NCBI GenBank assembly: GCA_044226625.1
Contig: JBGAGQ010000001.1
Location: 32,001-96,000, forward strand
Length of the DNA: 64,000 nucleotides
Source: Thermoanaerobaculia bacterium
Lineage (GTDB): Bacteria; Acidobacteriota; Thermoanaerobaculia; Multivoradales; UBA5704
Reading direction: 5' to 3'
A model generated the notes under the pieces. The model had not been told where the DNA came from. It did no database searches and worked only from the letters and a program-made list of their open reading frames with translations. Positions within the stretch are counted from its first letter, which is position 1. Each line of letters opens with the position of its first letter. Shown one piece after another: positions 24,224 to 48,668 of this stretch. The translations under genes were made by a program, and so were the position numbers.

Positions 24224-27200
24224 TCATAAGCCGCAGCTCAAATTTCCGCCTTGTGCTTTCGGGTCGCGGAAGTCCGAAGAGGAATAACCGATCACCTCGA
24301 ACGACGCCCACGAGAGGACCGAGCGGGCCAATGGGTTGCGGCTCCTCAAGGCACAAAGCTGTGCTTGGCGCAAAGCGTCGGCAGCATCCGCACCCGCCGC
24401 GTAACTTCGATGAAACTCGGCGAGCAACCTCGAGGATCGGTCGTCTCCCACGCTCCAAACGCTCGCCAAAATGCCCGGCGCTCCCGCCGCGAAGATCGGC
24501 CGCACCAGCGCCCCGATTTCGACCTGACCGCCGGGATGCCCTGCGGCGCTCGAACAAGCCGCGAGCACCACCAGGCGCGTGCGGGCGAGGCGAAGCTCGG
24601 AGAGCATCTCGCCCGCGGACAGAAAACCGCTGCGTCCTTTTCCCGGGGCGAGCGCGAGATAGCTCCGAATCGGCGAGAGGATCACCGCGTGGCCCGCGTA
24701 ATGCACCATCCGAGCCCTGGTGGAATCGGCGAGGAAGGCTCCGGCGGTCGCGTTCTCTTCTTTCAAGACGATCGCTTCCCGACCGTAAATCCGCCGGAGG
24801 ATCCCCACCTCGTGCGAGGCCCCAGCAAGCCGTTCCAGCCCCGCCGCCTCCGGCGCGGCCGGGTCGAACGCCGGATCGCCCACGAGCAGCGCGGACGGCC
24901 GGACGGCGCGCCCCATCTTTCGATCCCGCAAGAGGCAATAGACGAACAGAGTCGCGCTCGGTGCGGTCGACACCACGAAATTTTCGACCAGATACCTGCC
25001 CGTGCGAACGTCCAGGAGGGCCGCCATCGGCACCTCGCGCAAGGGACTGTCCGGTACGATCACGATCCTTTCCGCGTGGTGACGCAGGAGTCGGTTTCGA
25101 ATCGATTCGAACACGGCTCGGTCCAACACCCCGAGCGTCTCGGCGGCCTCCCTGCCCAAACGCTTAGACACTTGCCGCTCCAATCGACGCGTCAGCTCGA
25201 CGAGAACGGCACGATCGATCTTCTGAATCACGACCTCGAACCGGTCGTCTTGAACGAGCCACGCGACCACCCGATTCTCGAGGACGGCCAGCTCGACGAC
25301 GACGGTTCCCCGCGGCAAATCGCGCTGGACCTCGTGGAGCCGCAAGGGAGCACCGGTCTGTGCCAAGAGGCGGACCTCCCGAGGAGAGAGGCTGGCCCCG
25401 CGTAGAAACGAGAGGGGCTCGAAGACGCGGGACCGCTCGGCGACCTCGAAGGCTTCGCGATAGAGACCTCGATCCAGCAGGAGAGAGAGATAAAGCTCAT
25501 AGGAACGGCGAAATCGAGCCAGATAATCGGCCAAGAAATCGGGCCCACGGCGCGCGTCATCCCCCTCCGTGCGCGCTCGTTCCCGGTGGATTTCGGCAAA
25601 ACCTCGCCGGAGATCCCCCTCCACCGCCACGCTTCGCCCGGCACGCTCCAGCGCTCCCGCCCGTTCGAAGGCCAACGTCGCCCGCAGCGTTCCCACCTCG
25701 CCCTCCGGATCGAGACGGAGCGCGTCGGTGAAGCGCTCGATGGCGCCGACGGGATCCGAACGCCAGAGGCTCGGCGCCTCGAGCCCGCGGATTTGGCCGG
25801 CCGCGCGCCCCAGTCCGTCCGGATCGGTTCCGAGCAGCCTTTCCGCCTCGGCCAGATCTCGCATCGCACTGGGGAAATCCCCCAGATCGGACTCCAGGGC
25901 GGCCCTTTCCTTGAGCGCCACGCCAAGGATCGCTTCCCTGCTCTTCCTCGTGCTCGTCGGCGAACGGAGCAAACTCTCGCGTGCCAGCCGCGAGGCCTCC
26001 TGCTGCAGCGCAAGCGCCACGTGGGGCGCGCGCAGCGAATGGGCTGTCAAGGCGGCTTCGCCCAGCAGTAGCTGGTAGACGGGCGGGGCCGAGGAGCGGG
26101 AGACTCTCTGCAGTAGACCAGCCGCTTCGCGCCACGCCGATTCGGCCTCGCCCAGGTTCCGAAGTATTCCCATCTTCCGAGCGGCGATTCGAAGGATGGC
26201 TTCGTCATCGCCTTCTCCCCGCTCCAGCTCCGCCGCGTGGTCGAACGCCTCGAGTGCTTCGAGGGGCCTTCCCAACCACTGCAGACAATAGGCGCGATGC
26301 GCCCGGGCTTTTGCCTCCAGATTGCGGTAGCCGCGAAGGCGTGCCAGCTTCTCGATGCGTTGGAGCCGATCCAACGCGGCCTCAGGAGGGATGAGCCGTC
26401 CCCGAGAAAGCTCTACGATCGATCCGAGCTCGGCGCTCCAAGCGATCGGGCTCGCGACCGAACGCAGCAGGCCGCGCGCCCGGCGAAAGGCCCGCGCCGA
26501 CGCGCGCGAGCGCAAGGCTTCCTGGGCATCGATCCCTTCTCTGAAGGCCCGCTGCCCCGCGGCAAACGTTCGCGCTCCGCGAGAGCTTCTGGAGATACGC
26601 GCCAATGAATCGACAACCGCCGGCAGAAACGTATCGCGAGTGAGCCGTCGATGCTCCTGCGCCAGCAGCCCTAAAGCCGTGGCGGTACGCCGAGCCGAAC
26701 GGAGCCGGCCGGCTTCCATCTCGTCAGCCCATCGACCGAGAAGCTCGTCTTCGCAAAATTGGCGCACCTGTGATGGAAAGCGATGGGCCGACCGTAGAAC
26801 CTCGGCACGATCGCCGAGCGTTAGGGCTCGCTCCAACCGGGATTTGGCAGAAGACCACGACCGCGTCTGGTCGGAGACGTAAGATTTTCGCAGTTGCAGA
26901 GCGCGTACGCGCGCCTGCCACCCCCGCTCCGAGCGCGAATCCCCTTCGACGTACGATCGCCACGAATCCTCGGCGAGGCCGCGCGGCATCACCGCGTCGT
27001 CGGCGAGAGCTCGAGTGAATCGAGCCTCGGCGGAACGAGGATCGAGCGCGAGAATCCGACGCGCCTCCTCGGCCGCTCGGAGCAGGTCGACGGGCGGACC
27101 GGCGGACCGTTCCCGTGCGGAATAGACGGCTCCAAAACCGAACAGGCTCGTCATGTCCCAGGCCTTGCTCCGAGCCGATGAGTCCGGCGTCTCGCGCTTC

Positions 27201-27304
27201 GGCCCCCCCGCTCCCGATTCCGGAGAGTTGCAATTGGCCAACAACAGGACACAAGAGAGGGTCGCCGCCGTCTCGCGGGCGCCTCTCCAAACGGCAATCG
27301 GCAT
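24224..27304 (-). CDS. TPR-like + CHAT protease (CHAT-1), possible lipoprotein
   Basis: C-terminal 'VHYAGHA...LVVLAACSS...W.V.D...ALRQAQ...WASF'; N-terminal 'VLLLANC'. Start uncertain. Confidence 0.85.
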   Translation of the reverse strand: MPIAVWRGARETAATLSCVLLLANCNSPESGAGGPKRETPDSSARSKAWDMTSLFGFGAVYSARERSAGPPVDLLRAAEEARRILALDPRSAEARFTRALADDAVMPRGLAEDSWRSYVEGDSRSERGWQARVRALQLRKSYVSDQTRSWSSAKSRLERALTLGDRAEVLRSAHRFPSQVRQFCEDELLGRWADEMEAGRLRSARRTATALGLLAQEHRRLTRDTFLPAVVDSLARISRSSRGARTFAAGQRAFREGIDAQEALRSRASARAFRRARGLLRSVASPIAWSAELGSIVELSRGRLIPPEAALDRLQRIEKLARLRGYRNLEAKARAHRAYCLQWLGRPLEALEAFDHAAELERGEGDDEAILRIAARKMGILRNLGEAESAWREAAGLLQRVSRSSAPPVYQLLLGEAALTAHSLRAPHVALALQQEASRLARESLLRSPTSTRKSREAILGVALKERAALESDLGDFPSAMRDLAEAERLLGTDPDGLGRAAGQIRGLEAPSLWRSDPVGAIERFTDALRLDPEGEVGTLRATLAFERAGALERAGRSVAVEGDLRRGFAEIHRERARTEGDDARRGPDFLADYLARFRRSYELYLSLLLDRGLYREAFEVAERSRVFEPLSFLRGASLSPREVRLLAQTGAPLRLHEVQRDLPRGTVVVELAVLENRVVAWLVQDDRFEVVIQKIDRAVLVELTRRLERQVSKRLGREAAETLGVLDRAVFESIRNRLLRHHAERIVIVPDSPLREVPMAALLDVRTGRYLVENFVVSTAPSATLFVYCLLRDRKMGRAVRPSALLVGDPAFDPAAPEAAGLERLAGASHEVGILRRIYGREAIVLKEENATAGAFLADSTRARMVHYAGHAVILSPIRSYLALAPGKGRSGFLSAGEMLSELRLARTRLVVLAACSSAAGHPGGQVEIGALVRPIFAAGAPGILASVWSVGDDRSSRLLAEFHRSYAAGADAADALRQAQLCALRSRNPLARSVLSWASFEVIGYSSSDFRDPKAQGGNLSCGL

Positions 27305-27424
27305 AATTTCTCTCAACGAGCGACAGAACGTTTGCGAAGTACTGCGGAGCCGAAAAGGAAGGTGCGGTGAACACGGGATTTGTGTGACCTTGATATAGGA
27401 TGAATATCCTAATTCAAGGCCCAC

Positions 27425-28009
27425 ATGACTCGGGAAGAAGACTTTTCCAGGCTCTATCGCACCTATGTCCGCGGAGTGATCGCATACCTCCGTCGGTTCA
27501 GGTTTTCTCCCGAGGAAGCCCGAGACCTGGCACAAGAAGTATTTGTCCGCGTCTATAAGAGAATGGGAACCTGGCAAGAGGAGGCGGAGTGGGCGTACTT
27601 GAAAAAGACGGCCTTTCACGTCGCCCTGAACGAGCTTCGCCGCCGCGACTCGCAAAGCCGAACCGCCAATGAGCAGTCGCTCGACGAGCTACCGGCCGCC
27701 CCCGAAGATCGCGGTCTTTGGGAGGGCGAGTCGAAATCCCCGGAAGCGGAGCTGATCGACCTCGAGGAGTCCCGATCGCACCGCAGGCATCTTCACCAGG
27801 CGATCGAAGATCTGCCCGAGCGGCTCAAGACCTGCCTGCTCCTTTGGCTCGGCGGGCTAAAGTATCGGGAGATCGCAAAGGTCTTGGGCGTTACTTTGGA
27901 CACCGCAAAAACGAGGATTCACGAGGCGAAGAGTCAGCTCGCCCTCGCCCTTCAGGAAACCTCTCGAGGCACCCGTGTCCGTCGGCCCGGGCAGGAGGAA
28001 CGGCCATGA
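27425..28009 (+). CDS. ECF sigma factor
   Basis: Region 2 'ARDLAQEVFVRVY', region 4 'LPERLK..LLL...GLKYREIA.VLG....TAKTRIH'. Confidence 0.92.
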   Translation: MTREEDFSRLYRTYVRGVIAYLRRFRFSPEEARDLAQEVFVRVYKRMGTWQEEAEWAYLKKTAFHVALNELRRRDSQSRTANEQSLDELPAAPEDRGLWEGESKSPEAELIDLEESRSHRRHLHQAIEDLPERLKTCLLLWLGGLKYREIAKVLGVTLDTAKTRIHEAKSQLALALQETSRGTRVRRPGQEERP

Positions 28010-28806
28010 GCGTCAAGCCGGATTCCTGGATCGAGGCGTATCACGAGATCGTCCGCGAGGAACGCGGCCGGGGCGACGAGTGGCCGACGGAAGAGAGTCT
28101 GTTCGCCTTTTCCCGGCAGGAGCTCGAGCCGGCCGAAGCCCGCAAGGTACGGAAGTTCCTGGTCGCCTATCCCGAGATCGCGGCGGCGCTGGCCGAGCTG
28201 GACGAACCCTTCTCGAGCTCCGCGAAAGGCCCGGAGGGCCTCACGGATGTTGAAATCGAGCAGGACTGGTCCCGGCTCATGACTCGTCTCGAAAAAGAGG
28301 CGACCTTCGCACCCCCGGCAGCTCTCTCCGAGCCGAAGCGACCCAAGAAGCCTCGCCAGCGGTCCCCTGTCGGCTGGTGGCTCGGCACTCTGGCGGCATC
28401 CGCCGCGGCCTTCGCCCTGGGCTCCCTCCTGGCGGTCTCGCCTTTCTCCGAACCGTCGCCGCCAATCGCCCTCCGCAGCCGCCTCTTGATTCCCGATGGG
28501 CAGCGAGGCACGACGCAAGAGCCCATACCGGTTGCGTCGGACGAGGGGAAGGGAGGGATGCTGCTGAGCCTCGGTTCGCTCGAACCGAGGCCGTTCGACG
28601 AATACCGCCTCTCGATCCATGAGGTCCGCGACGGGCGGGAGATCGAGCGCTTTCACCAGGGCGGTCTGCGGCGCAACGAGGCGGACGCATTCGACCTCCT
28701 ACTCCCCCCAGGTTCCCTCTCCCCGGGACTCTATCGGCTACGCCTGGTCGGGAACGCGGGGGGCGCCAACACCCTTCTCGCAACCTATTCCATCCGGTTG
28801 AGGTAA
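28006..28806 (+). CDS. Single-TM anti-sigma-like protein
   Basis: ATGA overlap with sigma; degenerate zf-HC2-like N-terminus lacking HxxxCxxC; TM 'WWLGTLAASAAAFALGSLLAV'; beta-rich C-terminal domain. Confidence 0.75.
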   Translation: MSVKPDSWIEAYHEIVREERGRGDEWPTEESLFAFSRQELEPAEARKVRKFLVAYPEIAAALAELDEPFSSSAKGPEGLTDVEIEQDWSRLMTRLEKEATFAPPAALSEPKRPKKPRQRSPVGWWLGTLAASAAAFALGSLLAVSPFSEPSPPIALRSRLLIPDGQRGTTQEPIPVASDEGKGGMLLSLGSLEPRPFDEYRLSIHEVRDGREIERFHQGGLRRNEADAFDLLLPPGSLSPGLYRLRLVGNAGGANTLLATYSIRLR

Positions 28807-28820
28807 CCACCAACTCGAAG

Positions 28821-28844
28821 CCACCTTCGGCCGTGCCGGGTGTC
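28821..28844 (+). promoter_or_regulatory. Putative ECF promoter CCACC-N14-GTGTC upstream of the caspase
   Basis: Same boxes and spacing as 41915-41938 (-). Confidence 0.5.
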
Positions 28845-28890: not shown

Positions 28891-31221
28891 ATGAGACGTC
28901 GCTCTTGGCTACCCCTTTGCTATCTTGCCACCGGATTCACGTTCTGGCTCGCCTTCCTACCCGACGCCGCCTCGCCGTCGGCGAATCCCGCCGCCGGCCC
29001 TCCATTCGCCGTAACGGATCGTTCCGCTCCAAGGCGTCTCGCGCTGTTGGTGGGAATCGATGACTACTCGGTTCCTCCCGGATCGCCGGTCACGCTCGCG
29101 CCGTTGCGCGGCGTGAGAAATCTCACCGGCGCCGTCCGGGATGTCCAATCGATGGCTCGCTTGCTGGTCGAAACGCAAAGCTTCGTTCCTGAAGACGTTC
29201 GCGTTCTCTCTGACCGGCAGGCGACCCGAGAGGCGATCCTCAACGCGATCGAGACCGATCTGATCCGCCGCGCACGCCCCGGAGACATCGCGCTCTTCTA
29301 CTACTCCGGGCACGGATCCCAAGTCCTCAACTCGGCTTCGAGCGAGCTCGACAAGCTGGACGAATCGATCGTCCCCGCCGATGTCCGGCTCGGCGCTCGA
29401 GACATCACCGACAAGGAGCTTCGCGAACGTTTCCTTCGAATCCTCGACCGCGGCGCCCTGTTGACCGTGGTGCTCGACGATTGCCACAGCGGCTCCGGTG
29501 CCCGCGAGGGCCTCCTTACCGCTTCGGTGCCCCGCGGGATCGAGCCGGATCTTCGCGACATCAACGATGGCTCCCCGGTGGGTCCCCTCCCGGAGGACCG
29601 AGGCGCGTTGGTCCTCGCCGCCAGCCAGGATTTCCAAAGCGCCTGGGAAAGCACGGACGAGCGCGGCAGATCCCGAGGCGCCTTCTCGCTCGCACTGGAG
29701 CGGGCGATCCTGGAACGCACGGAGGGAGAGCCCGCGTCCCAGACCTTCGCCCGCGCCCGGGCTCGGCTCAAGGCGGAACGCCGAATTCAGGAACCCGCGA
29801 TTTCGGGCTCGCCCGAAGCGATCGACCGCCCCTTGTTCGGTTTCTCGGGGGGAGCAGGAAAACGGCGCCCCCTCCTCGCGGTCGAGAAGAGCGGCGCCGA
29901 CGGACTGGTCGAGCTGCAAGGTGGGCTCGCCCTCGGATTGACGGTCGGCTCTCGGCTTCGTCTGGAGGGATCGGGAACCGAGCTCGAAGTCGTCCGCCTT
30001 GAAGGCTTCTCGCGCTGTACCGCCCGGATCGTTGCTTTCGGGGCAAACCGGAATCTCAACGCGATCCTCCCGGGTACTCTCGCCGAGGTCGTCCAATGGA
30101 AGGCTTCCCCTGGATTGCCCCTCCAAGTCTGGCTCGCCGAGAGCGACGGGTATCTGAAGTGCATCGAGATGGCGCGAACCTTGGCCGCCAGAGCCTCCAG
30201 CCGAGGGATGGGCTGGGTGACCGACCCCACCGAGACGCCCCCGACGCACGTCCTGCGCTGGCGCAAGGGAGGCTGGGAGCTTCTCGCGTCGGCCGCCGCC
30301 CCGCAGTCACTGGGAACCGCCATCGGTGCGGACGCGCTGCTCGACCGAGTGGGCTCGGCCGGGAGCCTTTTCGTCCAGCTTCCCGCACCTCCCGGTTACC
30401 TGCGGCGATTCAAGCTCGGTCCCGGAACGCCGAACGACGGAGTCCAGCCGGTGTTCGACCCGGAGCAGGCGGATTACCTGCTCGCGGGACGGTTTCACGA
30501 CGGCAAGATCGAATACGCCTGGATCCGTCCGGATGGCGCGGCCGACCGTCGGGCGAAGTCTCCCCTTCCGGTCCGAACCAGCTGGCGTCCCGCGGGCGCG
30601 CCCGATCCCGATAGCGAACGAGACGCCGCCGAGAACCTCGAGGCGAACCTCCTCCAGATTGTGAAGATCCGCGCGTGGTACCAGCTCTCCGGGCCGCCTG
30701 GCCAAGAGTTCCCCTACGACCTGGCGCTCCGCGGCCTCAAGAACCACCTCGACGTCGCTCCGGAGGGTTCGCTCCTCGGCGGAGAAAGGTACCAATTCGT
30801 CCTACGCCACAATTCCCGGCCGACCGGTTCGATCGTCCGGAGGTATGCCTACGTCTTCACCATCGACAGCCAGGGAGACAGCTCGCTCCTCTTTCCTCTC
30901 CTCGGCAGAGAAAATCACTTCGAGCCCGACTCGCAGACTCTCCGAGAGATCGTCCTTCCGCAGACGATGACGATCTCCGCCCCTTTCGGGCGCGATACCT
31001 ACTTTCTCCTGACCAGCGACGAACCGATTCCGAATCCCGGAATCCTCGAGTTCCGCGGTTTCCGTCGCCGGGGACCTCCGGGCGCGACCTGCCTGGAAGA
31101 GCTGCTTTCTCAGGTGGGGGGAACCAGCCGCAGCGACCCGCCCGCGACGACGATCGGATGGTCGATCGACCGATGGAGCTTCCAGTCCGTGGCACCGGCG
31201 GCTCCAGCGGTCCAACCCTGA
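28891..31221 (+). CDS. Exported caspase-like (C14) protease with DUF4384-like C-terminus
   Basis: ATG 28891 after AGGAGAGG; signal-like N-terminus; 'ALLVGIDDY', 'YSGHGS', 'LDDCHSG'; C-terminal 'YAYVFTIDSQG...LLFP...PFGRD'. Confidence 0.88.
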   Translation: MRRRSWLPLCYLATGFTFWLAFLPDAASPSANPAAGPPFAVTDRSAPRRLALLVGIDDYSVPPGSPVTLAPLRGVRNLTGAVRDVQSMARLLVETQSFVPEDVRVLSDRQATREAILNAIETDLIRRARPGDIALFYYSGHGSQVLNSASSELDKLDESIVPADVRLGARDITDKELRERFLRILDRGALLTVVLDDCHSGSGAREGLLTASVPRGIEPDLRDINDGSPVGPLPEDRGALVLAASQDFQSAWESTDERGRSRGAFSLALERAILERTEGEPASQTFARARARLKAERRIQEPAISGSPEAIDRPLFGFSGGAGKRRPLLAVEKSGADGLVELQGGLALGLTVGSRLRLEGSGTELEVVRLEGFSRCTARIVAFGANRNLNAILPGTLAEVVQWKASPGLPLQVWLAESDGYLKCIEMARTLAARASSRGMGWVTDPTETPPTHVLRWRKGGWELLASAAAPQSLGTAIGADALLDRVGSAGSLFVQLPAPPGYLRRFKLGPGTPNDGVQPVFDPEQADYLLAGRFHDGKIEYAWIRPDGAADRRAKSPLPVRTSWRPAGAPDPDSERDAAENLEANLLQIVKIRAWYQLSGPPGQEFPYDLALRGLKNHLDVAPEGSLLGGERYQFVLRHNSRPTGSIVRRYAYVFTIDSQGDSSLLFPLLGRENHFEPDSQTLREIVLPQTMTISAPFGRDTYFLLTSDEPIPNPGILEFRGFRRRGPPGATCLEELLSQVGGTSRSDPPATTIGWSIDRWSFQSVAPAAPAVQP

Positions 31222-36808: not shown

Positions 36809-37744
36809 CTAACTCCTCTCCTTCTGCGGCTGGACCCCCATCCCCTGCACGATCTGGTCGCCGTTGCCTCCGGTGACCGAGCAAAACGAGGTTCGCTCCG
36901 TGACGTTCGTGACTTTCACCCGGGCGCGCTCGTGGACGACCTCGTCGAGCGTCTCGCCGGTGTCGGGATCCGAAATGATTTCCGACTCGCCCACGACGAA
37001 CTCATCCCCGACCGAAACGCCTTCGCGCGAGCCCCGATTGAGGATGATCTTTTCGCCATCCACCTTGACGACCGAACCGCGCCAGGGCACCGAGGGGAGC
37101 TGCTCGACCATCCAAGGGATCACGTCTTTGATCGCCGTCTGCAGGGCCTCGTGTACGTTGTCCTTCTTCCCCGTGGTGATCGATCCCGCGTTCCCCAGTT
37201 TGTTCAGACCGAAGGAGATACCGTGTCCCTGCGCCAGTCCGACGAAATCCTTCGCGGCCACCAACGCGCCGGTCGTGGAGTCGATCATTTGCAAGGTGGC
37301 CCGAATTTCCGTCTTCGCTCGGTTCGCACCGATCTTGAACTGACCCAGATCGATTCCGCCCCCCTGGTTCGAGGCGTCCTTCTCGAAGTGGGTGATGACC
37401 CCTTTGACGAGAAGTTGTGCCGGGCTCATGCGACTCCGGACCGCCGTCTTCTTTCCCTGCACCGTCACACCCGACGCGCCACGTGCCTGCTCGTCGAGCG
37501 CGCTCTTCTGCATGTCGCTCTGCGCGACGACGATGAAATCGCCGCTTTCCTGGAGGGCCGTCGTCAACTCCGTCGCCCAGTCGTACCCGATACTGTCCGG
37601 AGCCTCGCTGTGGTTCTCGAACTTTTCGACGAAAACCGTATAGCGGAGCCCTCCGCTCGTACGGGCCCAGGCTGGTGAGAAGTGAAATGCGATTCCGAGT
37701 AGCAGACCAAGGCTCACGCTCTGAAGTCTTCGTTTCGAGTACAT
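36809..37744 (-). CDS. CsgG/HfaB-like exported protein with FlgT-C-like domain
   Basis: AAGGAGG RBS; signal peptide; 'FEN..ELTTAL..SG.F.VV', 'IDSTTG.LV'; C-terminal 'IILNRGS..GV.VGD.F...DPDTGE.L'. Confidence 0.75.
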   Translation of the reverse strand: MYSKRRLQSVSLGLLLGIAFHFSPAWARTSGGLRYTVFVEKFENHSEAPDSIGYDWATELTTALQESGDFIVVAQSDMQKSALDEQARGASGVTVQGKKTAVRSRMSPAQLLVKGVITHFEKDASNQGGGIDLGQFKIGANRAKTEIRATLQMIDSTTGALVAAKDFVGLAQGHGISFGLNKLGNAGSITTGKKDNVHEALQTAIKDVIPWMVEQLPSVPWRGSVVKVDGEKIILNRGSREGVSVGDEFVVGESEIISDPDTGETLDEVVHERARVKVTNVTERTSFCSVTGGNGDQIVQGMGVQPQKERS

Positions 37745-42052: not shown

Positions 42053-43945
42053 GTGATCCGATTTCGTGTCGAAATCCAAGCCGTGGCGAGCGGCTTTGCG
42101 GTGCGAGCCTCCTGCCCGCGAGGGGAGGGCCGCTCCCAGCTCGTTCTGACCACCCCGATCTCGGCGGTACCTTCTTCCAACGGCGAGCACGATCCGAGAG
42201 CGATCGGAGAAGAGCTTTTTAGCTCGCTGCTGATGGGAGAAACCCTTTCGCTCTACGAGCGCTCGATCGACGACCTCGAAGCCGACCCCGACGGCATGCT
42301 CAGGATGGAACTCAGCTTCGATCCGCGGGACCCCGACGTGGCGGCTCTTCAGCGCCTTCCCTGGGAGCTCCTGAACAAACCCGGCTCCCCCGATCTCCTC
42401 GCGCTCGACCGGAGGAGGTCGATCGTCCGGTATCTCACCGTACCCCAGCGGATTACCGCGGCCCCAAAGCCCCAAAAACTGCGCATCCTGGCGGTCACGT
42501 CCGATCCCCGTCTGACCGGAATGCGTCCGTTGAACCTCGAAGGCGAGCTTCAGAGCCTTCGGGACGCCATCGGAAATTCAGGCACTCTCGAGCTGATCGA
42601 GCTAAGGAACGGCACCCTCGCCGCGCTCCGCGAAAAGCTCGTCGAACAGGAGTTCCACGTCCTTCATTTCCTCGGCCACGGGGTTCGACACCCAGCGTCC
42701 GGTGACCAGGTGCTCTATTTCGAGGGGCCTCTTCGCCAAGCCGATCCGGTGAGCGGTTCGGACCTGATGAACAAGCTTTCCGGACGCCCTCGCTTGCGTC
42801 TCGTCGTGCTCAACGCCTGCGAATCCGGCGTCGTTCCCGAGGGATCGAAGGAGATGGAATTCCGGCCCCTGGCGAGTGTTGCGACCTCGCTCGTACTCGG
42901 GGGCATGCCCGCGGTGATCGCGATGCGCAAGCCGATTCGGGACTCCGCGGCGGTGGCTTGGGCCCACGGATTCTATTCGCGCCTGGCGGCGGGCGACACG
43001 ATCGACGCCGCCATGGTCGAAGGGCGCCAACAGGTCCATTCGAGAGACCGTGCTGGCGACGAATGGGCGACGCCGATCCTTTTTCTTCGCTCGGCGACCG
43101 GCGAGCTCTACCCCGAGCGGGAGCTACCGCCAGAGGGGGTCACCCGCTGGCGCCTCGGCCGCCGCTTCGCGATTCTGGTTACCCTGCTTCTCGTCGCCGG
43201 TTTGGCCTGGCTCGGCCGGAGAGAGTGGGTGGATCAGCGGGTCCAGCGCCTCTGCGCGGAGGGCGCCGCCAAGGTCACCGCCGGAAACTGGAACGAGGCA
43301 CGCGAGCGCTTCCGGACCGCTCTGAAGCTCGCTCCCCGCTCGGCCAAGGTGGCGACAAATCTGGCCGCCGCCGAGGAGCAGTTGGGCGACGTGCGCGCGG
43401 CCGAGGATCTCTATCGCGAGGCCGCGCTGCGGGAGCCGGAATCCGTGGATCGGCTCTACGACCTCGGCCACTTCCTAAACGATCACGGCAACCCCGTCGA
43501 GGCTTACGGCGTCCTTTCCAAGGCTGTGACGTGGCCCGCTCCCTCGCCGCGAAACTCCGAGGTCTACGCCGAGCTGGCGCGAGCCGCCCTGTCTCGCGGG
43601 CTTTTCTCCCGCGCGAGAACGAACATCGCCGTCGCGTTGCGGCTCGACCCGGAGCGCGCCGAGTACTACAGGCGCCTCGGCGAGATCGAGCTGGCGAGCG
43701 GCTCTCCCGCGGCGGCGATCGCTCCGCTTGAGAGGGCTCTCGACCTCTTCGCCGTCGGCGATCTCGGGCGCATCGAGACGCTCGCCCTGCTCGCGCAATC
43801 CGAAGACCGGCTCGGCAACGCCGCCGCCACCTGCCGTCGGGTCGACGACTTCCGCCTGCTCGACAACCAGGGGATCTCGCCCTGGGCCCCGGCGGTGGAG
43901 GAAATCGCCCGCCGCCGGGCTTGCCCTGAAAGGACCGACGGATGA
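42053..43945 (+). CDS. N-terminal CHAT + TM + C-terminal TPR protein (CHAT-4)
   Basis: 'LPWELL', 'VLHFLGHG', 'LVVLNACES', 'EWATP.L'; TM 'FAILVTLLLVAGLAWL'; TPRs. Start uncertain (GTG 42053). Confidence 0.85.
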   Translation: MIRFRVEIQAVASGFAVRASCPRGEGRSQLVLTTPISAVPSSNGEHDPRAIGEELFSSLLMGETLSLYERSIDDLEADPDGMLRMELSFDPRDPDVAALQRLPWELLNKPGSPDLLALDRRRSIVRYLTVPQRITAAPKPQKLRILAVTSDPRLTGMRPLNLEGELQSLRDAIGNSGTLELIELRNGTLAALREKLVEQEFHVLHFLGHGVRHPASGDQVLYFEGPLRQADPVSGSDLMNKLSGRPRLRLVVLNACESGVVPEGSKEMEFRPLASVATSLVLGGMPAVIAMRKPIRDSAAVAWAHGFYSRLAAGDTIDAAMVEGRQQVHSRDRAGDEWATPILFLRSATGELYPERELPPEGVTRWRLGRRFAILVTLLLVAGLAWLGRREWVDQRVQRLCAEGAAKVTAGNWNEARERFRTALKLAPRSAKVATNLAAAEEQLGDVRAAEDLYREAALREPESVDRLYDLGHFLNDHGNPVEAYGVLSKAVTWPAPSPRNSEVYAELARAALSRGLFSRARTNIAVALRLDPERAEYYRRLGEIELASGSPAAAIAPLERALDLFAVGDLGRIETLALLAQSEDRLGNAAATCRRVDDFRLLDNQGISPWAPAVEEIARRRACPERTDG

Positions 43946-45153
43946 CTCAGAGCTTTCTTCGTTCGGGATTCCGCGCGGCCTCCCGGCTCGCGCTTCTCAC
44001 GGCCCTGCCGGCTGGCGCGCTATCTGCCCGCCCCGAGATCTCCGCTCGGCTCACCCAGATCGGCGGCGCGGTGGAGGTGGCAGGCCCAGGGGTCCGGAGC
44101 CTGCCCGCCGCGAACGCCTGGCAAATCGTTCAAGAAGGAGCCCTGGTGCGCGTACCCGCCGAGGGGTTCGTCGGCGTGGTCTGCTCGAACCGCCGCTACG
44201 TCCCGCTCAAGGGACCGGCCGTTTGGAAGCTTTCAGAGAGGGCATGCAATACCGGCCGGCTCCTGACCGAAGCCCAATACGCGCTCGTGGCGCCGCGCGC
44301 CGGCCGGTTCGAGGTGGTGGAAGGGATGATGGTCATCGACCGCGAGCTGCGCACCATTCGGGGCGAGAACCCTTTCGCGCCGACGGTCTATTCGCTTCGG
44401 AACTGTGTACTGCCCTCGCTTCGTCCCACCCTTTGGTGGCTCGCGGGCGAGAGCGCGGAAGAGTACCGGGTCGAATGGCGACGAGGCGACGTGACCGAGC
44501 ATCGCTTCCAGATTTCAGCGGCCGAAGCGACCTGCCATCGAGATCCGGACGGGCTCGACCTCTGCTCGTACCCTTGGCCCGCGGAGGCTCCGGATCTTGC
44601 CCAGGATTCGGAATACCTCCTCAACGTCTCGGCTCGAAACGGCGTCTCTCCAAACTGGTTCGCCGACACGCCGGTTGACGCGCGAACGCCGCGGCCGGGG
44701 GACGACGCCCAACTTCGAGCCGCACTGGCCGAGCTACGGAACGCGGGCCTCGTGGGCGACGATCTGCTGACGGCAGAGGCCGGGCTCTTCGCGAGGCGAC
44801 GCCTGTACTCGCAAGCGATCCCGATCTATCGACAGCTTCGCGCCAGTAATCCATCCCCGGAGCTCGCCGTCACCCTCGCCGACCTCTACCTCGTCACCGG
44901 CCTCGACTTCCTCGCCGAGCCGCTCTACCGCGAGGCGCTCGCGGGCGATTCGAAAGCCGTTCGAGCGGCCGCCTACTTCGGGTTGGGCCGGATCGCCTAC
45001 GAGGGCCAACGCTATTGCGACGCCGTCGGCTCTTTCGAGCTGGCGAGGCAAGTCTACGACGAGCGAAGTCTCACCCAAGAGGCCGAGGCGGCGAATCGAG
45101 CGCTAACGCGAGCGGTGCAGGAATCGGCGAAGTCTTTGGAAAAGTCGCCGTGA
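43942..45153 (+). CDS. Exported protein with FecR-like N-domain, DUF928-like middle and TPR tail
   Basis: ATGA overlap; signal peptide; 'RPTLWW..YRVEW..YPWP..APDL'; C-terminal TPRs. Domain names are by resemblance only. Confidence 0.6.
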   Translation: MTQSFLRSGFRAASRLALLTALPAGALSARPEISARLTQIGGAVEVAGPGVRSLPAANAWQIVQEGALVRVPAEGFVGVVCSNRRYVPLKGPAVWKLSERACNTGRLLTEAQYALVAPRAGRFEVVEGMMVIDRELRTIRGENPFAPTVYSLRNCVLPSLRPTLWWLAGESAEEYRVEWRRGDVTEHRFQISAAEATCHRDPDGLDLCSYPWPAEAPDLAQDSEYLLNVSARNGVSPNWFADTPVDARTPRPGDDAQLRAALAELRNAGLVGDDLLTAEAGLFARRRLYSQAIPIYRQLRASNPSPELAVTLADLYLVTGLDFLAEPLYREALAGDSKAVRAAAYFGLGRIAYEGQRYCDAVGSFELARQVYDERSLTQEAEAANRALTRAVQESAKSLEKSP

Positions 45154-45396
45154 TGCACCTCGGACCCGCAAGCGCAGGTCGCCGAACGCGCGAGCGATGA
45201 GGAAGACGCGGGCGCCTTGAAGCTCGGCCGGCGGAACCCGACGGGAAAGCTCGACCACCGCGCGCTCCGCATCGCTCTCGACGATGCGGCCGAAAGCCAG
45301 ACGGGTGACGGCGTTGTCTCGTTCAGCACCGGCCCGATGGACTTTGACTTTGGGGGCCGGAGCGGAGGAGGAGCTCAGCGAACTCGGCGGGACACT

Positions 45397-48300
45397 TCAC
45401 GGTCGTTTGGATTCGGAAATCCTTTCGGATCGGAACAGCCTTTCCGTCGAAGTACGGGGGTCTCCGGTGTACGCGTAACCGGCCCAATAGAAAGGCGCCC
45501 CGTATTTCGGGTGAACGATCATCTCGCTTTGCGCCGCGCGTAGCGCTTCCGACGCGGCTCGGCCCTCGACGAGGTGGCGGTAGAGAGAATCGATCAGCAA
45601 CGCCGAGGCCTCGTCGTCGATGCTCCAGAGGGTTGCGACCACGCCCCCCGCACCCGCGAAGAGAAAGGCGCGAATCATCCCTTCGATCTCGTCGCCCCCG
45701 GATCTCTTGCCGAGGCCGCTCTGACAGGAGGACAGCACCACGAGCGGCCGTGCGGGCAACCGCAGCTCGTCGAAGATCTCCCCCATCTCCAGACGGCCGT
45801 CCTGTTCGGCGTCCGGCGCGAGGGCCAGATAGCTCACCCTCGGCCGTTTCGAATCCTGCTCACCGTGCGCCGCGAGGTGGAGCAACGAGAGCGACGCAGC
45901 CTGCTTTCGCAGGATCGATTCCCGCGCCTGCGCTCCCACCTTCGCGGTCACGCCCAGGAGCCGCGCGACCCCTTCCGCCTCTCGCCGGGCCGCTGGCAAG
46001 GGCGGAAGGTCCGGGATTTCGGTCGCAGGATCGCCGAACACTAGCGCGCCGGCAGCAGCAGATAGCGACGGCTCCCCGGGCCTCGCGTTCGCCTCCGCCA
46101 CCAGCGCACCGGCCGCGGGGAGCAGGCTCAAGGCGTAGTCCTGGATCAGATACCGCCCCGTGCCCGGCTCCTGGAGCGCGCCCCAAGGCAACCGCTGAAG
46201 GGCATCATGGGGGACGAGCAGCAGGCGCGAGGCCCGCAGATGGGGACGCAAAGGGGCGATCAACGATCGATATAAACCCTCGCTCACCGAGCGGAATGTC
46301 GTCAAACCGGGATCGACCACCTCCACGCCCCGCTCGAGGAGACGATCGGGCCGGACGCCCGAATACCCTTCGGCCGGGATCGCCGAACGAAGCCTCTCGA
46401 CGTCCCGGGCTAACTGCCCGCGGGAGGGCGAAAGCTCGAACGAGGCCAGGCCTTCGCGGTCGAGAACCCAGGCGATCGTCTTGCCCGGCAAGGTGAAGAA
46501 GCTCACCAGAGCGGTATCCTCCGGAAGCGCCGCTCGGATCTCCGCGACGGTCGGGGGTCGGCTGACCGGCAACTCGGAGTACCCGGGTTGCAGCAACTTA
46601 AGCCGGAGCAGCAGGTCGTCCCTCGAGCCGCGCAGTTCTTCGACCTTCGCCAAGCTGTCCCGATCGTCCGCGGGCTCGAGCGTCTTCAAACGGGCGTTGA
46701 TCTCGTCGATGCGGGCGAGAAGGTCCGGATCCCCTTCCGCTCGGGGGTCGGATCGCGGCCCCCCCAACCAGCGAAGGAGCGTCGACGCTCGGGCGCGTTC
46801 GGCGCTCGCGAAAGCGTCCTCCGTACGGCCCGCGGCGACTTCCAGCTCGATCAGGGGCTCGAAGCTCTTCGCCGTTTCGCGCGCGACGTTCAGGGAGAAC
46901 TCGTCGAGACGGAGATGCTCTTGGCGCTCCTCGGCGGAGTCCGCGAGCTCTCGGGCCGCCGCGATCGCCTCCTCCGGTTTGCCCTGGCTCGCTAGCAGGC
47001 TCGACCGGAGGGCCAGGATCACCTTCCGATCCGGGGCATCCTTCGCCATCGCCTCGGCGGGGAGATTCGCGAGCTCCTTCAGCCTCCGTCGCCAGGGGGC
47101 CGAAATCGGCCGTCGGATCGTCGCGAACGGCCTCGAGCAGCCGTCGCGTGTTGGTCATGCCTTCCGCCGGAAGTAGATCCTCCAGCGCCACCCCGAGCTT
47201 CCCGAGCTGAGCGAGGCTCACGGGCTCCTTCTCGTCCATCGCTGCAGCAGCCTCGAGGAGCGCGCCAACTTCAGGAGAGATGTCGGAAATCAGCTCGGCC
47301 AGCTTCCGAAAGGCCTTCACCTTCTCCGGCCCATCGGCTTGCTCTCCCAGCGCTACAGAGAACCAATGCAAGGTTTCTGCTTGCCTCATGTCATCCTCGG
47401 TGCCGGCCTTTTCCCGCGCGACGTCCGCCGCGCGCCGGCTTCGTTCCGACGCTCCCAGGTCCGAGAACAGGATTGACTCCAGACTATGAAGAAAGGAGGG
47501 CAACGAAGGTTCGAGCTTTTGGGCTTCCGCCAGGAGCGCCACCGCCTCCTCCGCCCGATTTGCGTTCCGCGCCAGGAGCGACAACACCGCGAGCACCTTC
47601 GCTCGATCCTCGGGCTCCATGGCCGCGGAGAGCAGCTTCTTACCCTGGACGAATAGCTCCTCGGCCGCGGGCGATCCGAGCGGAACGCCGCGCCGCTGCG
47701 ATTCCTCCAGCAGGGCCACCACCTTCCGCTTGGGGTCGCTCTTGGACTTTTCGATAAAGGCCAAAACCTTACGGGCCGGTATGCCAAGGGACGTTTCCAG
47801 ACCCGATGAAAGCTCGAGGACTCGGTTCAGCTCATTGTTCGCCTCATCGAAACGGCCATGTCCGACCAGAATCTCGGCCAGGCTTCCACGCGACAGCCCT
47901 TCCAACAGGGCGGGAATTCGTTCGATCTTTTCCGCCGGTTTCCAGCCGAGCTTCGCAGCGAGCCGCAAAGCCCAGAGGAGCTTTTCGATGCCGTCGACGG
48001 GCTTCCGAAAGACGTGATTCAGAGAACGGGGCATCGCCGCGGCCAGCTTCGCGGCCCGACGCAAGAGCGTCTCCGCCTCGGCATCGTCGTCGCGCTCTTT
48101 CGCCGTAAGACCGAGGCTCAGTGAGAGGACTGCGGGCGCCAGCCGATCGCCCGCTTGCACGTACCGCTCCAAGGCCTGCTCGAAGTACGCCCGCGACGTC
48201 GCTTCGTCCTCGAAAGTGGAGAGCCCGAGCAGGGTGAGCGCGTTCGCCTCCTCGCCGAGATCTCCCTTCGCTTTCGCCTCGGCGCGCTGCTTTTCCAGTT

Positions 48301-48478
48301 GTTCGACGACGAAGTGGCGGGCCGAGCTCGTCAACTCTCCCGGTTTGAGCGAGGTTCGGGCTTCCGCTTCTCCGAGTCCGGCGATCGTCAAAGCCCAGGC
48401 GAGGAGGATGACGAGGCGTCGGCGCACAGCCCCCCTTCCAGCTTCGGTCTGCGTCCTCTCGGTACCCGGTCTGGCCAC
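45397..48478 (-). pseudogene. TPR + CHAT protease (CHAT-5) split by a one-base frameshift near 47095-47099
   Basis: GTG 48478 after AAGGAGG with signal peptide. The reading frame switches between 47154 and 47050. Downstream frame has 'LHLAAHG', 'VLSSCQSG', 'PFYWAGY'. Confidence 0.75.
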
Positions 48479-48502
48479 GTTCGAGCCCTCCTTCTTTTCA
48501 AA

Positions 48503-48527
48503 GACACTCTTGATCGCTGAGAGGGGG
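48503..48527 (-). promoter_or_regulatory. Variant promoter CCCCC-N15-GTGTC upstream of CHAT-5
   Basis: GACAC at 48503-48507 on +, 24 nt before the start codon. Confidence 0.35.
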
Positions 48528-48668
48528 CGACTGTTCAGACGGAGAGGGCTCGGAATCACGGCGGGCGTGTCATCGAAGCGGCGCGGGCTCCCTTGCCCTG
48601 CCCGTCCCCGATCGATTGACGCTTATAGCCCGTTGGTGATACCTTCCTCAGGTCCAAAAGGAGTGGTC

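What the first reader, a model, noticed from the sequence alone, without database searches (positions are those of the whole stretch)
24224..48530. CRISPR-independent, trans-envelope CHAT/caspase proteolytic signalling island
Seen: every gene in 24 kb fits one theme. There are five TPR-CHAT proteases and one C14 caspase-like protease, all with intact His/Cys dyads, plus an ECF sigma with coupled TM anti-sigma, a membrane Ser/Thr kinase, an FHA-ABC exporter, a CsgG-like protein and an exported TPR protein. Codon usage looks less GC-biased than the flanks, and no cas gene or SAVED/CARF domain is visible in the window. Known: in Craspase, TPR-CHAT Csx29 cleaves Csx30, which binds a sigma factor; the Haliangium type III-B locus links SAVED-CHAT, PCaspase, a sigma factor, an inhibitor and a kinase. 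Inference: the same parts list, with TPR sensors and export signals, forms an envelope protease cascade (TPR-CHAT -> caspase -> anti-sigma -> sigma) for defence, kin/prey recognition or development.
Basis: partly seen in the sequence, partly recalled or inferred. Interest (0 to 1): 0.9.

Follow-up and report, generated by a model that had tools for sequence, protein, structure and literature searches.

The report
CHAT/caspase–ECF sigma envelope signalling island
An accessory gene island in an uncultured acidobacterium combines exported caspase-family proteases with a sigma/anti-sigma switch and a kinase-controlled exporter, and its core gene sets recur in many related genomes, pointing to an undescribed way of signalling across the cell envelope by proteolysis.

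Summary
Window 24224-48530 encodes five CHAT proteases (one of them frameshifted in this assembly), a metacaspase-like C14 protein, and an ECF sigma translationally coupled to a one-pass anti-sigma. It also encodes a membrane Ser/Thr kinase, an FHA-ABCG exporter, a CsgG-like protein and an exported TPR protein. There is no cas gene in the window, and third-position GC is lower than in the flanks.

Comparative genomics shows two conserved modules.

Module 1 is a TPR-CHAT lipoprotein encoded divergently from sigma and anti-sigma, often with the exported metacaspase. The anti-sigma family occurs in 73 of 400 other class genomes. Of 29 loci, 17 show the chat1-type gene beside sigma. All 12 extended loci carry a flanking CHAT gene, and 7 of 12 a caspase homologue.

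Module 2 is kinase > FHA-ABCG > CsgG-like > TPR-CHAT, seen in 7 genomes of 2 families.

The two modules are adjacent in the window, in G006 and, rearranged, in G486.

The most likely mechanism (inferred, not shown) is a split, DdvA-like regulated proteolysis: exported CHAT and/or metacaspase proteases cut the anti-sigma near a conserved juxtamembrane D-G-x-R-G motif and so free the sigma factor.

The claim that all 24 kb form one machine is only partly supported. I rate this a new variant of a known kind, interest about 0.6.

The parts
24224..27304 (-). chat1: TPR-CHAT protease, probable lipoprotein (start ATG 27304 is my choice; the ORF is open to 27655). Divergent from the sigma gene.
   Evidence: Pfam CHAT E 3e-52. 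Family alignment A3 has invariant H872 and C917. The profile matches the Craspase CHAT 8d9h_E (E 2e-5) and separase 5fc2 (E 2e-4). Full-length orthologues are divergent from sigma in 10 of 12 extended loci. Lipobox-like N-termini in orthologues.
27425..28009 (+). ECF-type sigma-70 factor
   Evidence: Pfam Sigma70_r2, r4_2 and Sigma70_ECF. TIGR02937 above its cut-off. Best PDB sequence matches are ECF sigma factors.
28006..28806 (+). One-pass anti-sigma-like protein of an unannotated family. It has an N-terminal helical domain, a TM helix at 125-143, the conserved P-D-G-x-R-G motif (residues 163-168) and a periplasmic Ig-like beta-sandwich.
   Evidence: 4-nt overlap with the sigma stop. Adjacent to a sigma homologue in 29 of 29 loci. 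Alignment A1. AF2 model, pLDDT 77.6. Generic Ig-like fold hits only. R167 and G168 each present in 25 of 28 sequences. 114 relatives, none with a Pfam domain or a functional name.
28891..31221 (+). Exported metacaspase-like C14 protease with about 450 aa of conserved beta-rich C-terminal domains (alternative starts at 28840 and 28864)
   Evidence: Pfam Peptidase_C14. His/Cys aligned to AtMC4. H141, G142, C198 and H199 invariant in A2. AF2 model, pLDDT 74.6. Top Foldseek hits are metacaspases 4/9, Yca1 and TbMCA2.
31233..34025 (-). chat2: TPR-CHAT, last gene of the minus-strand operon; tandem paralogue of chat3
   Evidence: Pfam CHAT 2e-56 plus TPR_12. 54% identical to chat3. Present in G006.
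34061..36805 (-). chat3: exported TPR-CHAT with a signal peptide
   Evidence: Pfam CHAT 1e-55 plus TPR_12. N-terminal hydrophobic segment. Orthologues follow the CsgG-like gene in G006, G015, G486, G691, G426 and G652.
36809..37744 (-). CsgG-like / FlgT_C periplasmic or outer-membrane protein (signal peptide, no lipobox Cys)
   Evidence: Pfam CsgG 8e-17 and FlgT_C 2e-8. N-terminus.
37788..39881 (-). FHA-domain ABCG-type half-transporter (FHA, then NBD, then ABC-2 membrane domain)
   Evidence: Pfam FHA, ABC_tran and ABC2_membrane. TIGR00955, 254 bits. Five hydrophobic segments.
39898..41883 (-). Membrane Ser/Thr kinase: kinase domain, TM helix at about 352-370, Pro/Gly-rich linker, extracytoplasmic globular domain of about 150 aa. 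First gene of the operon.
   Evidence: Pfam Pkinase 3e-50. Start chosen at GTG 41883, which has a GGAGG upstream. Topology.
42053..43945 (+). chat4: CHAT domain with no signal peptide, then a TM-like helix at about 365-385, then C-terminal TPRs (start uncertain)
   Evidence: Pfam CHAT 4e-27 plus TPR_16/19. Weak HetF hit. Hydropathy and sequence. A chat4-like CHAT lies upstream of sigma in G034 and G621.
43942..45153 (+). Exported protein with C-terminal TPRs, start overlapping the chat4 stop
   Evidence: Signal-peptide-like N-terminus. Weak TPR_16. Conserved after chat4 in G006.
45397..48478 (-). chat5: TPR-CHAT with a signal peptide, read in two frames in this assembly (the frame switches near 47080-47100)
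   Evidence: Pfam CHAT 6e-61 in 45397-47049 and TPR in 46598-48559. Frame-wise GC3. A low-depth contig of a second run of the same sample has 2 extra letters behind 47080, which would give one frame of 1067 codons.

Best explanation
The region is an accessory island of a Thermoanaerobaculia (Acidobacteriota) genome built from two recurrently linked modules, plus extra CHAT genes.

Module 1 (chat1 <> sigma > anti-sigma > metacaspase) most likely works as a split version of the Myxococcus DdvS/DdvA switch. The one-pass anti-sigma holds the ECF sigma at the membrane. An extracytoplasmic signal, sensed through TPR or other domains, activates the exported TPR-CHAT lipoprotein and/or the exported metacaspase-like protease. 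The protease then acts as a site-1 protease and cuts the anti-sigma's periplasmic part, probably at or near the conserved juxtamembrane D-G-x-R|G. An M50 site-2 protease and cytoplasmic proteases then free the sigma factor, which drives the island genes.

Module 2 (membrane Ser/Thr kinase > FHA-ABCG exporter > CsgG-like protein > exported TPR-CHATs) most likely works like PknF/Rv1747: the kinase's outside domain senses a signal, and phospho-threonine binding by the FHA domain gates the exporter. The CsgG-like protein and the CHAT proteases act on the periplasmic or outer-membrane side.

Shown: gene content, catalytic residues, predicted topology, conserved synteny of each module, and their repeated adjacency. 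Inferred: every cleavage event, the direction of signal flow, the substrate of the exporter, and the biological role.
For: 1. Module 1 is conserved well beyond close kin.
- The anti-sigma family occurs in 73 of 400 other class genomes.
- Sigma is adjacent in 29 of 29 loci, and a chat1-type N-terminus lies divergently upstream of sigma in 17 of 29.
- Of 12 extended loci, 12 have a flanking CHAT gene, 10 have a full-length chat1-type gene, and 7 have a caspase homologue at 44-57% identity.
- Reciprocally, 12 of 29 chat1-type loci have sigma upstream.

2. Starting from the caspase, 6 of 10 loci from other families of the phylum have a CHAT gene within the roughly 40 kb fetched, and 2 of these also have sigma/anti-sigma.

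3. Rosetta-stone precedent: DdvA is an anti-sigma fused through one TM helix to a periplasmic TPR-CHAT. It is proposed to cut its own linker before RseP acts (PMC11506125, passages).

4. A CHAT > caspase > sigma cascade with an associated kinase exists in Haliangium (bioRxiv 2023.06.23.546230, passages).

5. Intact dyads in all the proteases.

6. Exported location: signal-peptide or lipobox-like N-termini in the window proteins and in orthologues.

7. The anti-sigma has Lys/Arg-rich sequence before its TM helix and an Ig-like domain after it. The R-G pair is present in 25 of 28 sequences. The two sequences that clearly lack it are the two whose neighbours are chat4/chat5-type CHATs. Acidic P4 with Arg at P1 fits the separase motif as quoted, and Arg at P1 fits metacaspases (specificity recalled).

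8. An M50 protease is present in the genome.

9. Module 2 (STK > FHA-ABC > CsgG-like > CHAT) is seen in G000, G006, G015, G486, G691, G426 and G652. The modules are adjacent in G000, G006 and, in another order, in G486. The G006 block has unrelated flanks.

10. The PknF/Rv1747 precedent comes from the abstracts listed.
Against: - No experiment or expression data: no RNA run was listed.
- Synteny cannot tell whether the proteases act on the anti-sigma or are simply genes that the sigma factor controls.
- No fused anti-sigma-CHAT form of this family was found (the tool rates this as weak evidence).
- chat1 and the sigma show no sequence-level match to DdvA or DdvS.
- The anti-sigma N-terminal domain has no Cys/His zinc motif, so it is not a ZAS domain.
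- 17 of 29 chat1-type genes have no sigma next door, and 4 of 10 caspase loci have no CHAT nearby.
- Module 2 stands alone in 3 of 4 extended f14 loci.
- The CsgG-like family is mostly unlinked to island genes (18 of 27 loci).
- The conserved R-G lies in a loop at the start of the modelled beta-sandwich, not in the lowest-confidence linker.
- Signal peptides and gene starts were judged without a dedicated predictor.
- Related genomes are not independent samples.
Confidence: 0.45

Rival explanations
1. Output model. The sigma/anti-sigma pair responds to some other envelope signal through an unrelated site-1 protease or through a conformational change. The CHAT proteases, metacaspase, exporter and CsgG-like protein are simply its regulon: exported enzymes and transport parts for envelope remodelling, surface-protein processing or protein scavenging.
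For: ECF sigma factors commonly sit beside their target genes. The classification paper itself says that regulators and targets are hard to tell apart from context (PMC7826278, passage). chat1 is divergently transcribed from sigma, with very short spacing in G129 and G099, which fits co-regulation. chat1-type genes form a large multi-copy family, and most copies lack a sigma neighbour (17 of 29). The genome holds 35 CHAT matches.
Against: The DdvA fusion shows that a periplasmic TPR-CHAT can belong to the sensing side of an anti-sigma. The specific, repeated pairing of one anti-sigma family with caspase-family proteases, and the change in the R-G motif in the two loci with other CHAT types, would be unexpected for mere targets.
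Confidence: 0.3
2. Defence or conflict system. The island senses phage or competitor proteins in the periplasm through TPR domains and answers with proteolysis and a transcriptional alarm, as proposed for DdvA. Alternatively it kills the cell, as Haliangium PCaspase does.
For: The precedents. Accessory distribution: the CsgG-like gene was found in 1 of 7 other same-genus genomes, and the island is absent beside conserved flanks in G001, G002 and G003. Lower GC3 than the flanks. A restriction-modification/ATPase stretch lies 10 kb to the left.
Against: PADLOC gives only generic kinase, caspase and CHAT-domain matches and no system-specific hit. There are no CBASS, cas or effector nuclease genes in the window. 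Exported proteases cannot degrade cytoplasmic proteins as PCaspase does. This is a statement about role and could hold together with the best explanation.
Confidence: 0.15
3. A chance pile-up of paralogues. A CHAT-rich genome happens to have several CHAT genes near unrelated signalling genes, with no functional coupling.
For: 35 CHAT matches in the genome. chat2/chat3 are a tandem duplication. chat4/tprX and chat5 are conserved with the island only in G006.
Against: Expected 0.13 CHAT genes per 24.3 kb against 5 seen. Four distinct CHAT subfamilies are present. Both modules are conserved across families, and they are adjacent again in G486 in a different order.
Confidence: 0.05

Closest known systems
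DdvS/DdvA of Myxococcus xanthus (ECF sigma with a transmembrane anti-sigma carrying a periplasmic TPR-CHAT; PMC11506125, passages read)
   Same: An ECF sigma with a one-pass anti-sigma, a periplasmic TPR-CHAT with a His/Cys dyad, and a proposed protease-triggered regulated intramembrane proteolysis.
   Different: Here the TPR-CHAT is a separate lipoprotein gene and is not fused. The anti-sigma has an Ig-like periplasmic domain and no zinc-binding N-terminal motif. An exported metacaspase is added. There is no CBASS or CRISPR regulon beside it. No sequence-level match to DdvA or DdvS was found.
Haliangium ochraceum type III-B SAVED-CHAT > PCaspase > sigma cascade (bioRxiv 2023.06.23.546230, passages read)
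   Same: CHAT protease, C14 caspase, sigma factor and Ser/Thr kinase in one gene cluster, with one caspase-family protease acting on another.
   Different: That system is cytoplasmic, cA3-activated through a SAVED domain, and tied to Cmr and CBASS genes. Here the proteases carry export signals and TPR domains, a membrane anti-sigma is present, and no SAVED or cas gene was found in the window.
Craspase (Cas7-11 with TPR-CHAT Csx29, Csx30 and CASP-sigma; described in passages)
   Same: A TPR-CHAT architecture. The catalytic region of the chat1 family matches the Craspase CHAT protein 8d9h/7x8a by profile. The protease controls a sigma factor through a bound inhibitor.
   Different: No gRAMP or RAMP gene in the assembly. 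Predicted extracytoplasmic location. A different inhibitor (a membrane anti-sigma).
PknF/Rv1747 of Mycobacterium tuberculosis (abstracts in the listing)
   Same: A Ser/Thr kinase in an operon with an FHA-domain ABC exporter that it regulates.
   Different: One FHA domain here, not two. A different phylum. The operon continues with a CsgG-like protein and TPR-CHAT proteases.
ECF54 group (CHAT, subtilase and carboxypeptidase-domain genes in the conserved context; PMC8999054 passage, PMC7826278 passages)
   Same: An ECF sigma whose conserved neighbourhood holds CHAT proteases, with proteolytic control proposed.
   Different: ECF54 is described as actinobacterial and as lacking an anti-sigma. Here a co-transcribed anti-sigma is always present. 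I could not assign this sigma to an ECF group because no group models were available.

Membership tests
ECF sigma / one-pass anti-sigma pair controlled by regulated intramembrane proteolysis | Sigma-70 regions 2 and 4 only, ECF type | tested here: met
   Pfam Sigma70_r2, r4_2 and Sigma70_ECF. TIGR02937 scores 78 bits against a cut-off of 42.9.
ECF sigma / one-pass anti-sigma pair controlled by regulated intramembrane proteolysis | Co-transcribed single-pass membrane anti-sigma that binds the sigma factor | tested here: inconclusive
   Start/stop overlap, one TM helix, and sigma adjacency in 29 of 29 loci. Only a sub-threshold NCBIfam anti-sigma hit (30 bits against a cut-off of 100). Binding was not tested.
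ECF sigma / one-pass anti-sigma pair controlled by regulated intramembrane proteolysis | Dedicated site-1 protease and M50 site-2 protease | tested here: inconclusive
   M50 homologues are present in the genome (ubiquitous). The site-1 role of chat1 or the metacaspase is inferred from synteny only.
DdvA-type anti-sigma | N-terminal zinc-binding (CHCC) anti-sigma domain, TM helix and periplasmic TPR-CHAT in one polypeptide | tested here: not met
   The anti-sigma is 266 aa with an Ig-like periplasmic domain. There is no conserved Cys/His in the N-terminal domain. CHAT is a separate gene. No longer fused relatives were found (weak evidence).
Craspase (type III-E) | TPR-CHAT encoded with and bound to Cas7-11/gRAMP | tested here: not met
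   No RAMP (PF03787) match in the assembly. No cas gene among the 41 window ORFs scanned.
SAVED-CHAT / PCaspase system | SAVED sensor domain fused to CHAT | tested here: not met
   No SAVED Pfam hit on any of the five CHAT proteins. The whole-genome SAVED search was uninformative because its controls did not ring.
SAVED-CHAT / PCaspase system | CHAT protease, C14 caspase, sigma factor and kinase in one cluster | tested here: met
   conserved in G006 and G486.
Metacaspase-type C14 peptidase | Caspase fold with a His/Cys dyad; closest to metacaspases | tested here: met
   phmmer hits AtMC4 at E 1e-15 with the motifs aligned. H141 and C198 are invariant. The top Foldseek hits are metacaspases.
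Metacaspase-type C14 peptidase | Cleavage after Arg/Lys | not testable with these tools
CsgG curli secretion channel | CsgG domain | tested here: met
   PF03783, E 8e-17, covering positions 29-207 of the 210-position model.
CsgG curli secretion channel | Lipoprotein Cys and csgA/B/E/F partners | tested here: not met
   The N-terminus has a signal peptide without a lipobox Cys. No curli-family Pfam hit among the window ORFs scanned.
PknF/Rv1747-type kinase-gated ABC exporter | Ser/Thr kinase in an operon with an ABC exporter that carries an N-terminal FHA domain | tested here: met
   A 17-nt gap between the genes. FHA at residues 20-83, then the NBD, then ABC2_membrane. The order is conserved in 7 genomes.
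PknF/Rv1747-type kinase-gated ABC exporter | Phosphorylation-dependent regulation | not testable with these tools
   Needs biochemistry.
ECF54 | No anti-sigma; actinobacterial | tested here: not met
   An anti-sigma-like gene is always adjacent. The lineage is Thermoanaerobaculia.

The most novel reading that the evidence does not exclude
Thermoanaerobaculia use an extracytoplasmic caspase-family cascade as a new kind of site-1 protease for ECF signalling. A TPR-CHAT lipoprotein senses a periplasmic protein cue and activates an exported metacaspase, or acts alongside it. The anti-sigma is cut after the conserved Arg of its D-G-x-R|G motif, and the freed sigma factor switches on a kinase-gated ABCG/CsgG-like export apparatus with further CHAT proteases. 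This would be a bacterial, trans-envelope counterpart of eukaryotic caspase cascades, independent of CRISPR or cyclic-nucleotide signals.
Probability: 0.2. Interest if true: 0.8.

Novelty: new variant of a known kind. Interest (0 to 1): 0.62.

Why it matters
Protease control of sigma factors by caspase-family enzymes has so far been described inside the cell (Craspase, SAVED-CHAT/PCaspase) or as a single fused protein whose trigger is unknown (DdvA).

A split, multi-gene version would offer several things:
- separable parts for biochemistry (protease, substrate, sensor);
- a candidate cleavage motif to test;
- a large natural series of variants, since the anti-sigma family is present in about a fifth of the sampled class genomes;
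- a function for at least part of the very large and unexplained CHAT expansions in Acidobacteriota and similar phyla;
- a link from Ser/Thr-kinase-gated export to the same circuit.

All named members of the anti-sigma family are currently annotated 'hypothetical protein'.

Tried and rejected
- Complex prediction on chat1 (residues 155-1026, alignment A3) with the periplasmic part of the anti-sigma (144-266, alignment A1) gave no verdict: score 0.31 against a mark of 0.32, and the controls were not run. I do not count it either way.

- Promoter or regulon motif search upstream of 29 sigma genes. Enriched dyads were found, 13 of 29 against at most 5 in shuffles. They lie inside the chat1 coding sequence on the other strand, where they encode the conserved WPR..EPR peptide. 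I rejected them as confounded. Reading the intergenic regions by eye was inconclusive.

- Island boundaries through flank adjacency. The flank orthologues are on different contigs in G001-G004 and G006. DNA beside the ACP/KS and PMT_2 orthologues has no island genes, but no empty site could be reconstructed.

- Distant CsgG-like loci (G037, G052, G042) have metabolic, GmrSD, VWA and M48 neighbours.

- Sequence searches of chat3, chat1 and the sigma against the PDB did not retrieve DdvA or DdvS.

- Foldseek on the anti-sigma model gave only generic Ig-like hits.

- The search for fused, longer relatives of the anti-sigma found none (weak evidence).

- The whole-genome SAVED search was uninformative because its controls were silent.

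- Sequencing runs: no RNA holder was listed, so nothing can be said about expression. X3 and X4 held only small shares.

- The two extra genes of the f14-type module have no Pfam hit and no homologue in this genome.

- Literature. Searches found no paper describing a separate exported CHAT or caspase protease acting on an anti-sigma, or a CHAT/CsgG/FHA module. Supplements were closed. Table S7 of PMC11506125 (DdvA-like proteins) and the supplementary group descriptions of PMC7826278 could bear on novelty, and I could not see them.

- Unpublished genomes. The tally (13 of 300 other genomes) includes G209, and the tallies (73 and 78 of 400) include G498. No locus from either genome was analysed. 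L033 was fetched automatically and not used.

Full report
CONTEXT. The window is G000:C58:32001-96000 of a 6.6 Mb draft genome in 133 contigs, 98% complete with 5.5% contamination. Its nearest named relative locus and all named homologues of the anti-sigma protein come from Thermoanaerobaculia MAGs, phylum Acidobacteriota. The genome is not a myxobacterium, although its GC content is about 70%.

CHECK OF THE OBSERVATION. The region 24224-48530 holds twelve genes; coordinates are in 'parts'. Pfam confirms five CHAT proteins, one Peptidase_C14 protein, an ECF sigma, a CsgG-like/FlgT_C protein, an FHA-ABC-ABC2 transporter, a Ser/Thr kinase and a TPR protein. NCBIfam places the transporter with ABCG/White-type half-transporters. 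The ORF that overlaps the sigma stop codon is a one-pass membrane protein without any Pfam domain.

The catalytic His and Cys are present in the C14 protein, aligned to Arabidopsis metacaspase-4, and in all five CHAT domains. They are invariant in the caspase and chat1 family alignments. The chat1 profile matches the catalytic region of the Craspase CHAT protein and of separase.

Three corrections apply:
- chat5 is read in two frames in this assembly. The probable source run agrees with the window, while a low-depth contig of a second run of the same sample has two extra letters at the frame switch that would give one frame of 1067 codons. The break is therefore either a strain variant or an assembly error.
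- chat4 has the reverse architecture: a CHAT domain without a signal peptide, a TM-like helix preceded by RWRLGRR, then TPRs.
- No DUF928 was found, and DUF4384 is only a sub-threshold hit.

Island genes have GC3 of 0.71-0.82 against 0.87-0.94 in the neighbouring flank genes. Five of the genome's 35 CHAT matches lie here, against 0.13 expected. They belong to four subfamilies, and only chat2/chat3 are a recent tandem pair.

TOPOLOGY (hydropathy and inspection only). chat1 and its orthologues start with lipoprotein-like signals. chat3, chat5, the CsgG-like protein, the TPR protein and the caspase family have signal-peptide-like N-termini; chat2's is weak. The anti-sigma has a basic stretch before its TM helix, which places its helical N-domain in the cytoplasm and its Ig-like domain outside. 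The kinase has one TM helix, a Pro/Gly-rich linker and an outside domain of about 150 aa.

NO CRISPR LINK. None of the 41 window ORFs scanned is a cas, CARF or SAVED protein. The assembly has a Cas1 on contig C121 only and no RAMP match. The SAVED search was uninformative. PADLOC gives only generic domain matches.

CONSERVATION, MODULE 1. With the anti-sigma as query, 73 of 400 other genomes of the class have a match, often several, including 50 of 96 in family f14.
- In the 29 loci returned (+-1.5 kb), all 29 have a sigma homologue adjacent, and 17 show the N-terminus of a chat1-type protein divergently upstream of sigma.
- I extended 12 of these loci. All 12 have at least one CHAT gene flanking the pair.
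- 10 of the 12 have a full-length chat1-type gene, at 29-36% identity over residues about 50-1012.
- The other two, G034 and G621, have a chat4-like CHAT upstream and a chat5-like CHAT downstream.
- 7 of the 12 have a caspase homologue at 44-57% identity. Usually it lies beyond chat1, after two further conserved genes with no Pfam domain. In G056 it lies directly after the anti-sigma, as in the window.
- Starting from the caspase in 300 genomes of the phylum, 13 have a match. Of the 10 loci fetched, 6 have a CHAT gene within the fetched stretch, and G129 and G099 also have the chat1 <> sigma > anti-sigma arrangement.
- Reciprocally, the chat1 N-terminal region is a large multi-copy family, found in 78 of 400 genomes. 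12 of 29 loci have sigma upstream and 17 do not.

The pairing is therefore specific and widespread but not obligatory for chat1-type proteins.

CONSERVATION, MODULE 2. The order kinase > FHA-ABC > CsgG-like > chat3-type CHAT is kept in G006 (same genus), in G015 (another genus, on a 13 kb contig) and in four genomes of family f14 at 42-68% identity. The CsgG-like family as a whole is common: 98 of 400 genomes, mostly one copy at about 45% identity. It is usually unlinked to island genes: 18 of 27 loci have none nearby, and 5 of 27 have a kinase beside it.

LINKAGE OF THE MODULES. In G006 the whole island is syntenic from chat1 to the TPR protein, followed by a chat5-like gene. Its flanks share nothing with the window's flanks. 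In G486, a different family, the order is casp < gapA < chat1 <> sigma > anti-sigma > (1.6 kb) > kinase > FHA-ABC > CsgG-like > CHAT. In G691, G426 and G652 module 2 stands alone within the 20 kb fetched. In the same genus the CsgG-like gene was found in only 1 of 7 other genomes. G001, G002 and G003 have the window's flank genes without the island. So the island is accessory, and its two cores are separable but repeatedly joined.

THE ANTI-SIGMA FAMILY. Alignment A1 (28 sequences) and the AF2 model (pLDDT 77.6) show these features:
- a helical N-domain without conserved Cys or His;
- a TM helix;
- a conserved L-x-P-D-G-x-R-G stretch just outside the membrane;
- an Ig-like beta-sandwich with no specific structural relative.

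Arg167 and Gly168 are each present in 25 of 28 sequences, and one further sequence has the pair shifted by one position. The two clear exceptions are the two loci with chat4/chat5-type neighbours, which is n = 2. In the large protein collection the family has 114 members at E <= 1e-5 among the 8000 candidates scored. None has a Pfam domain, and all named ones are called hypothetical protein.

MECHANISM. What is shown is a conserved gene set whose products are predicted to meet at the outer face of the inner membrane. What is inferred follows.
(a) The small membrane protein is the anti-sigma of the adjacent ECF sigma. The basis is universal adjacency, translational coupling and topology. Binding was not tested.
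(b) The exported caspase-family proteases act on it. The basis is the DdvA fusion precedent, the Haliangium CHAT > caspase > sigma cascade, and the conserved Arg-containing motif. That motif fits both the separase-type preference quoted and the Arg/Lys preference of metacaspases (recalled).
(c) An M50 protease completes the release (ubiquitous, so this shows only feasibility).
(d) The kinase gates the FHA-ABCG exporter as PknF gates Rv1747 (abstracts).

The main rival is that the proteases are outputs of the sigma factor and not inputs, and synteny cannot separate the two. The complex prediction gave no verdict, and the promoter search was confounded.

COMPARISON AND NOVELTY. The island is not a member of the Craspase, SAVED-CHAT/PCaspase or DdvA families, because defining features were tested and not met; see the membership table. 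It works most like DdvS/DdvA, with the sensor-protease split from the anti-sigma and a metacaspase added. It is joined to a PknF/Rv1747-like kinase/exporter pair. ECF54 is the only ECF group for which I found a CHAT context in print. It is actinobacterial and has no anti-sigma. My six literature searches found no description of this split module, but supplements were closed. I therefore rate it a new variant of a known kind.

VERDICT. Confidence is high (about 0.9) that modules 1 and 2 are real conserved units. It is about 0.45 for the specific proteolytic-input mechanism. Interest is 0.62.

Noticed in passing
window 2990-3406 (-): Bacterial RNase P RNA class A (236 bits). The long ORF 3398-6550 (+), which ends in a full Peptidase_M2 (angiotensin-converting-enzyme-like) domain, overlaps it at its 5' end, so that gene probably starts further downstream.
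   Followed up: no
window 7644-14180: A low-GC stretch (0.61) with a 1056-aa N6-methylase/Eco57I/MmeI-like protein, a prokaryotic YEATS-domain protein (12296-12685) and an AAA_21/SMC_N ATPase (12951-14180). It looks like a small defence island about 10 kb left of the finding.
   Followed up: no
window 17037-24115 (-): An ACP, two ketoacyl synthases, an SDR and an MMPL transporter form a lipid or polyketide-type cluster that directly abuts the island. The cluster is conserved without the island in G001, G002 and G003.
   Followed up: partly
window 51288-53852 (+): An S8 subtilase with PKD and FG-GAP domains lies between the PMT_2 glycosyltransferase and a methyltransferase. In G001 and G002 those two genes are adjacent, so the subtilase is a second insertion.
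   Followed up: partly
window 59983-60911 (+): A second ECF sigma paralogue (28% identical to the island's sigma), followed by an overlapping 139-aa ORF without a Pfam hit. This may be another sigma/anti-sigma pair.
   Followed up: no
G000:C81:24972-34129 and G000:C121:74420-79241: Two more ECF sigma paralogues of this genome lie just upstream of CHAT genes. On C81 the order is sigma, a 0.6 kb gap, CHAT, a 504-aa ORF, CHAT. On C121 it is sigma then a lipoprotein-like CHAT. The C121 pair is about 10 kb from the genome's only Cas1 match, which recalls DdvS/DdvA control of CRISPR-Cas.
   Followed up: partly
L094:12872-14373 (also L092, L095, L099, L101, L159): In family-f14 genomes two conserved genes without any Pfam domain sit between chat1 and the caspase: one of about 352 aa and one lipoprotein-like of about 130 aa. 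They have no homologue in the window's genome.
   Followed up: partly
L136, L137, L138, L153, L155: In 5 of 27 class-wide CsgG-like loci a Ser/Thr kinase gene lies directly beside the CsgG-like gene, although the FHA-ABC and CHAT genes are missing. A kinase/CsgG-like pair may be the older unit.
   Followed up: no
window 48668-49127 (+): A small ORF of about 150 aa with a clear signal peptide and high GC3 lies between chat5 and the glycosyltransferase. It has no Pfam hit when scanned as part of the longer ORF 48216-49127.
   Followed up: no
window 1129-1947 (-): A protein that combines a cyclic-nucleotide-binding domain with an FHA domain. It is another FHA signalling protein in the window, unrelated in position to the island.
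   Followed up: no
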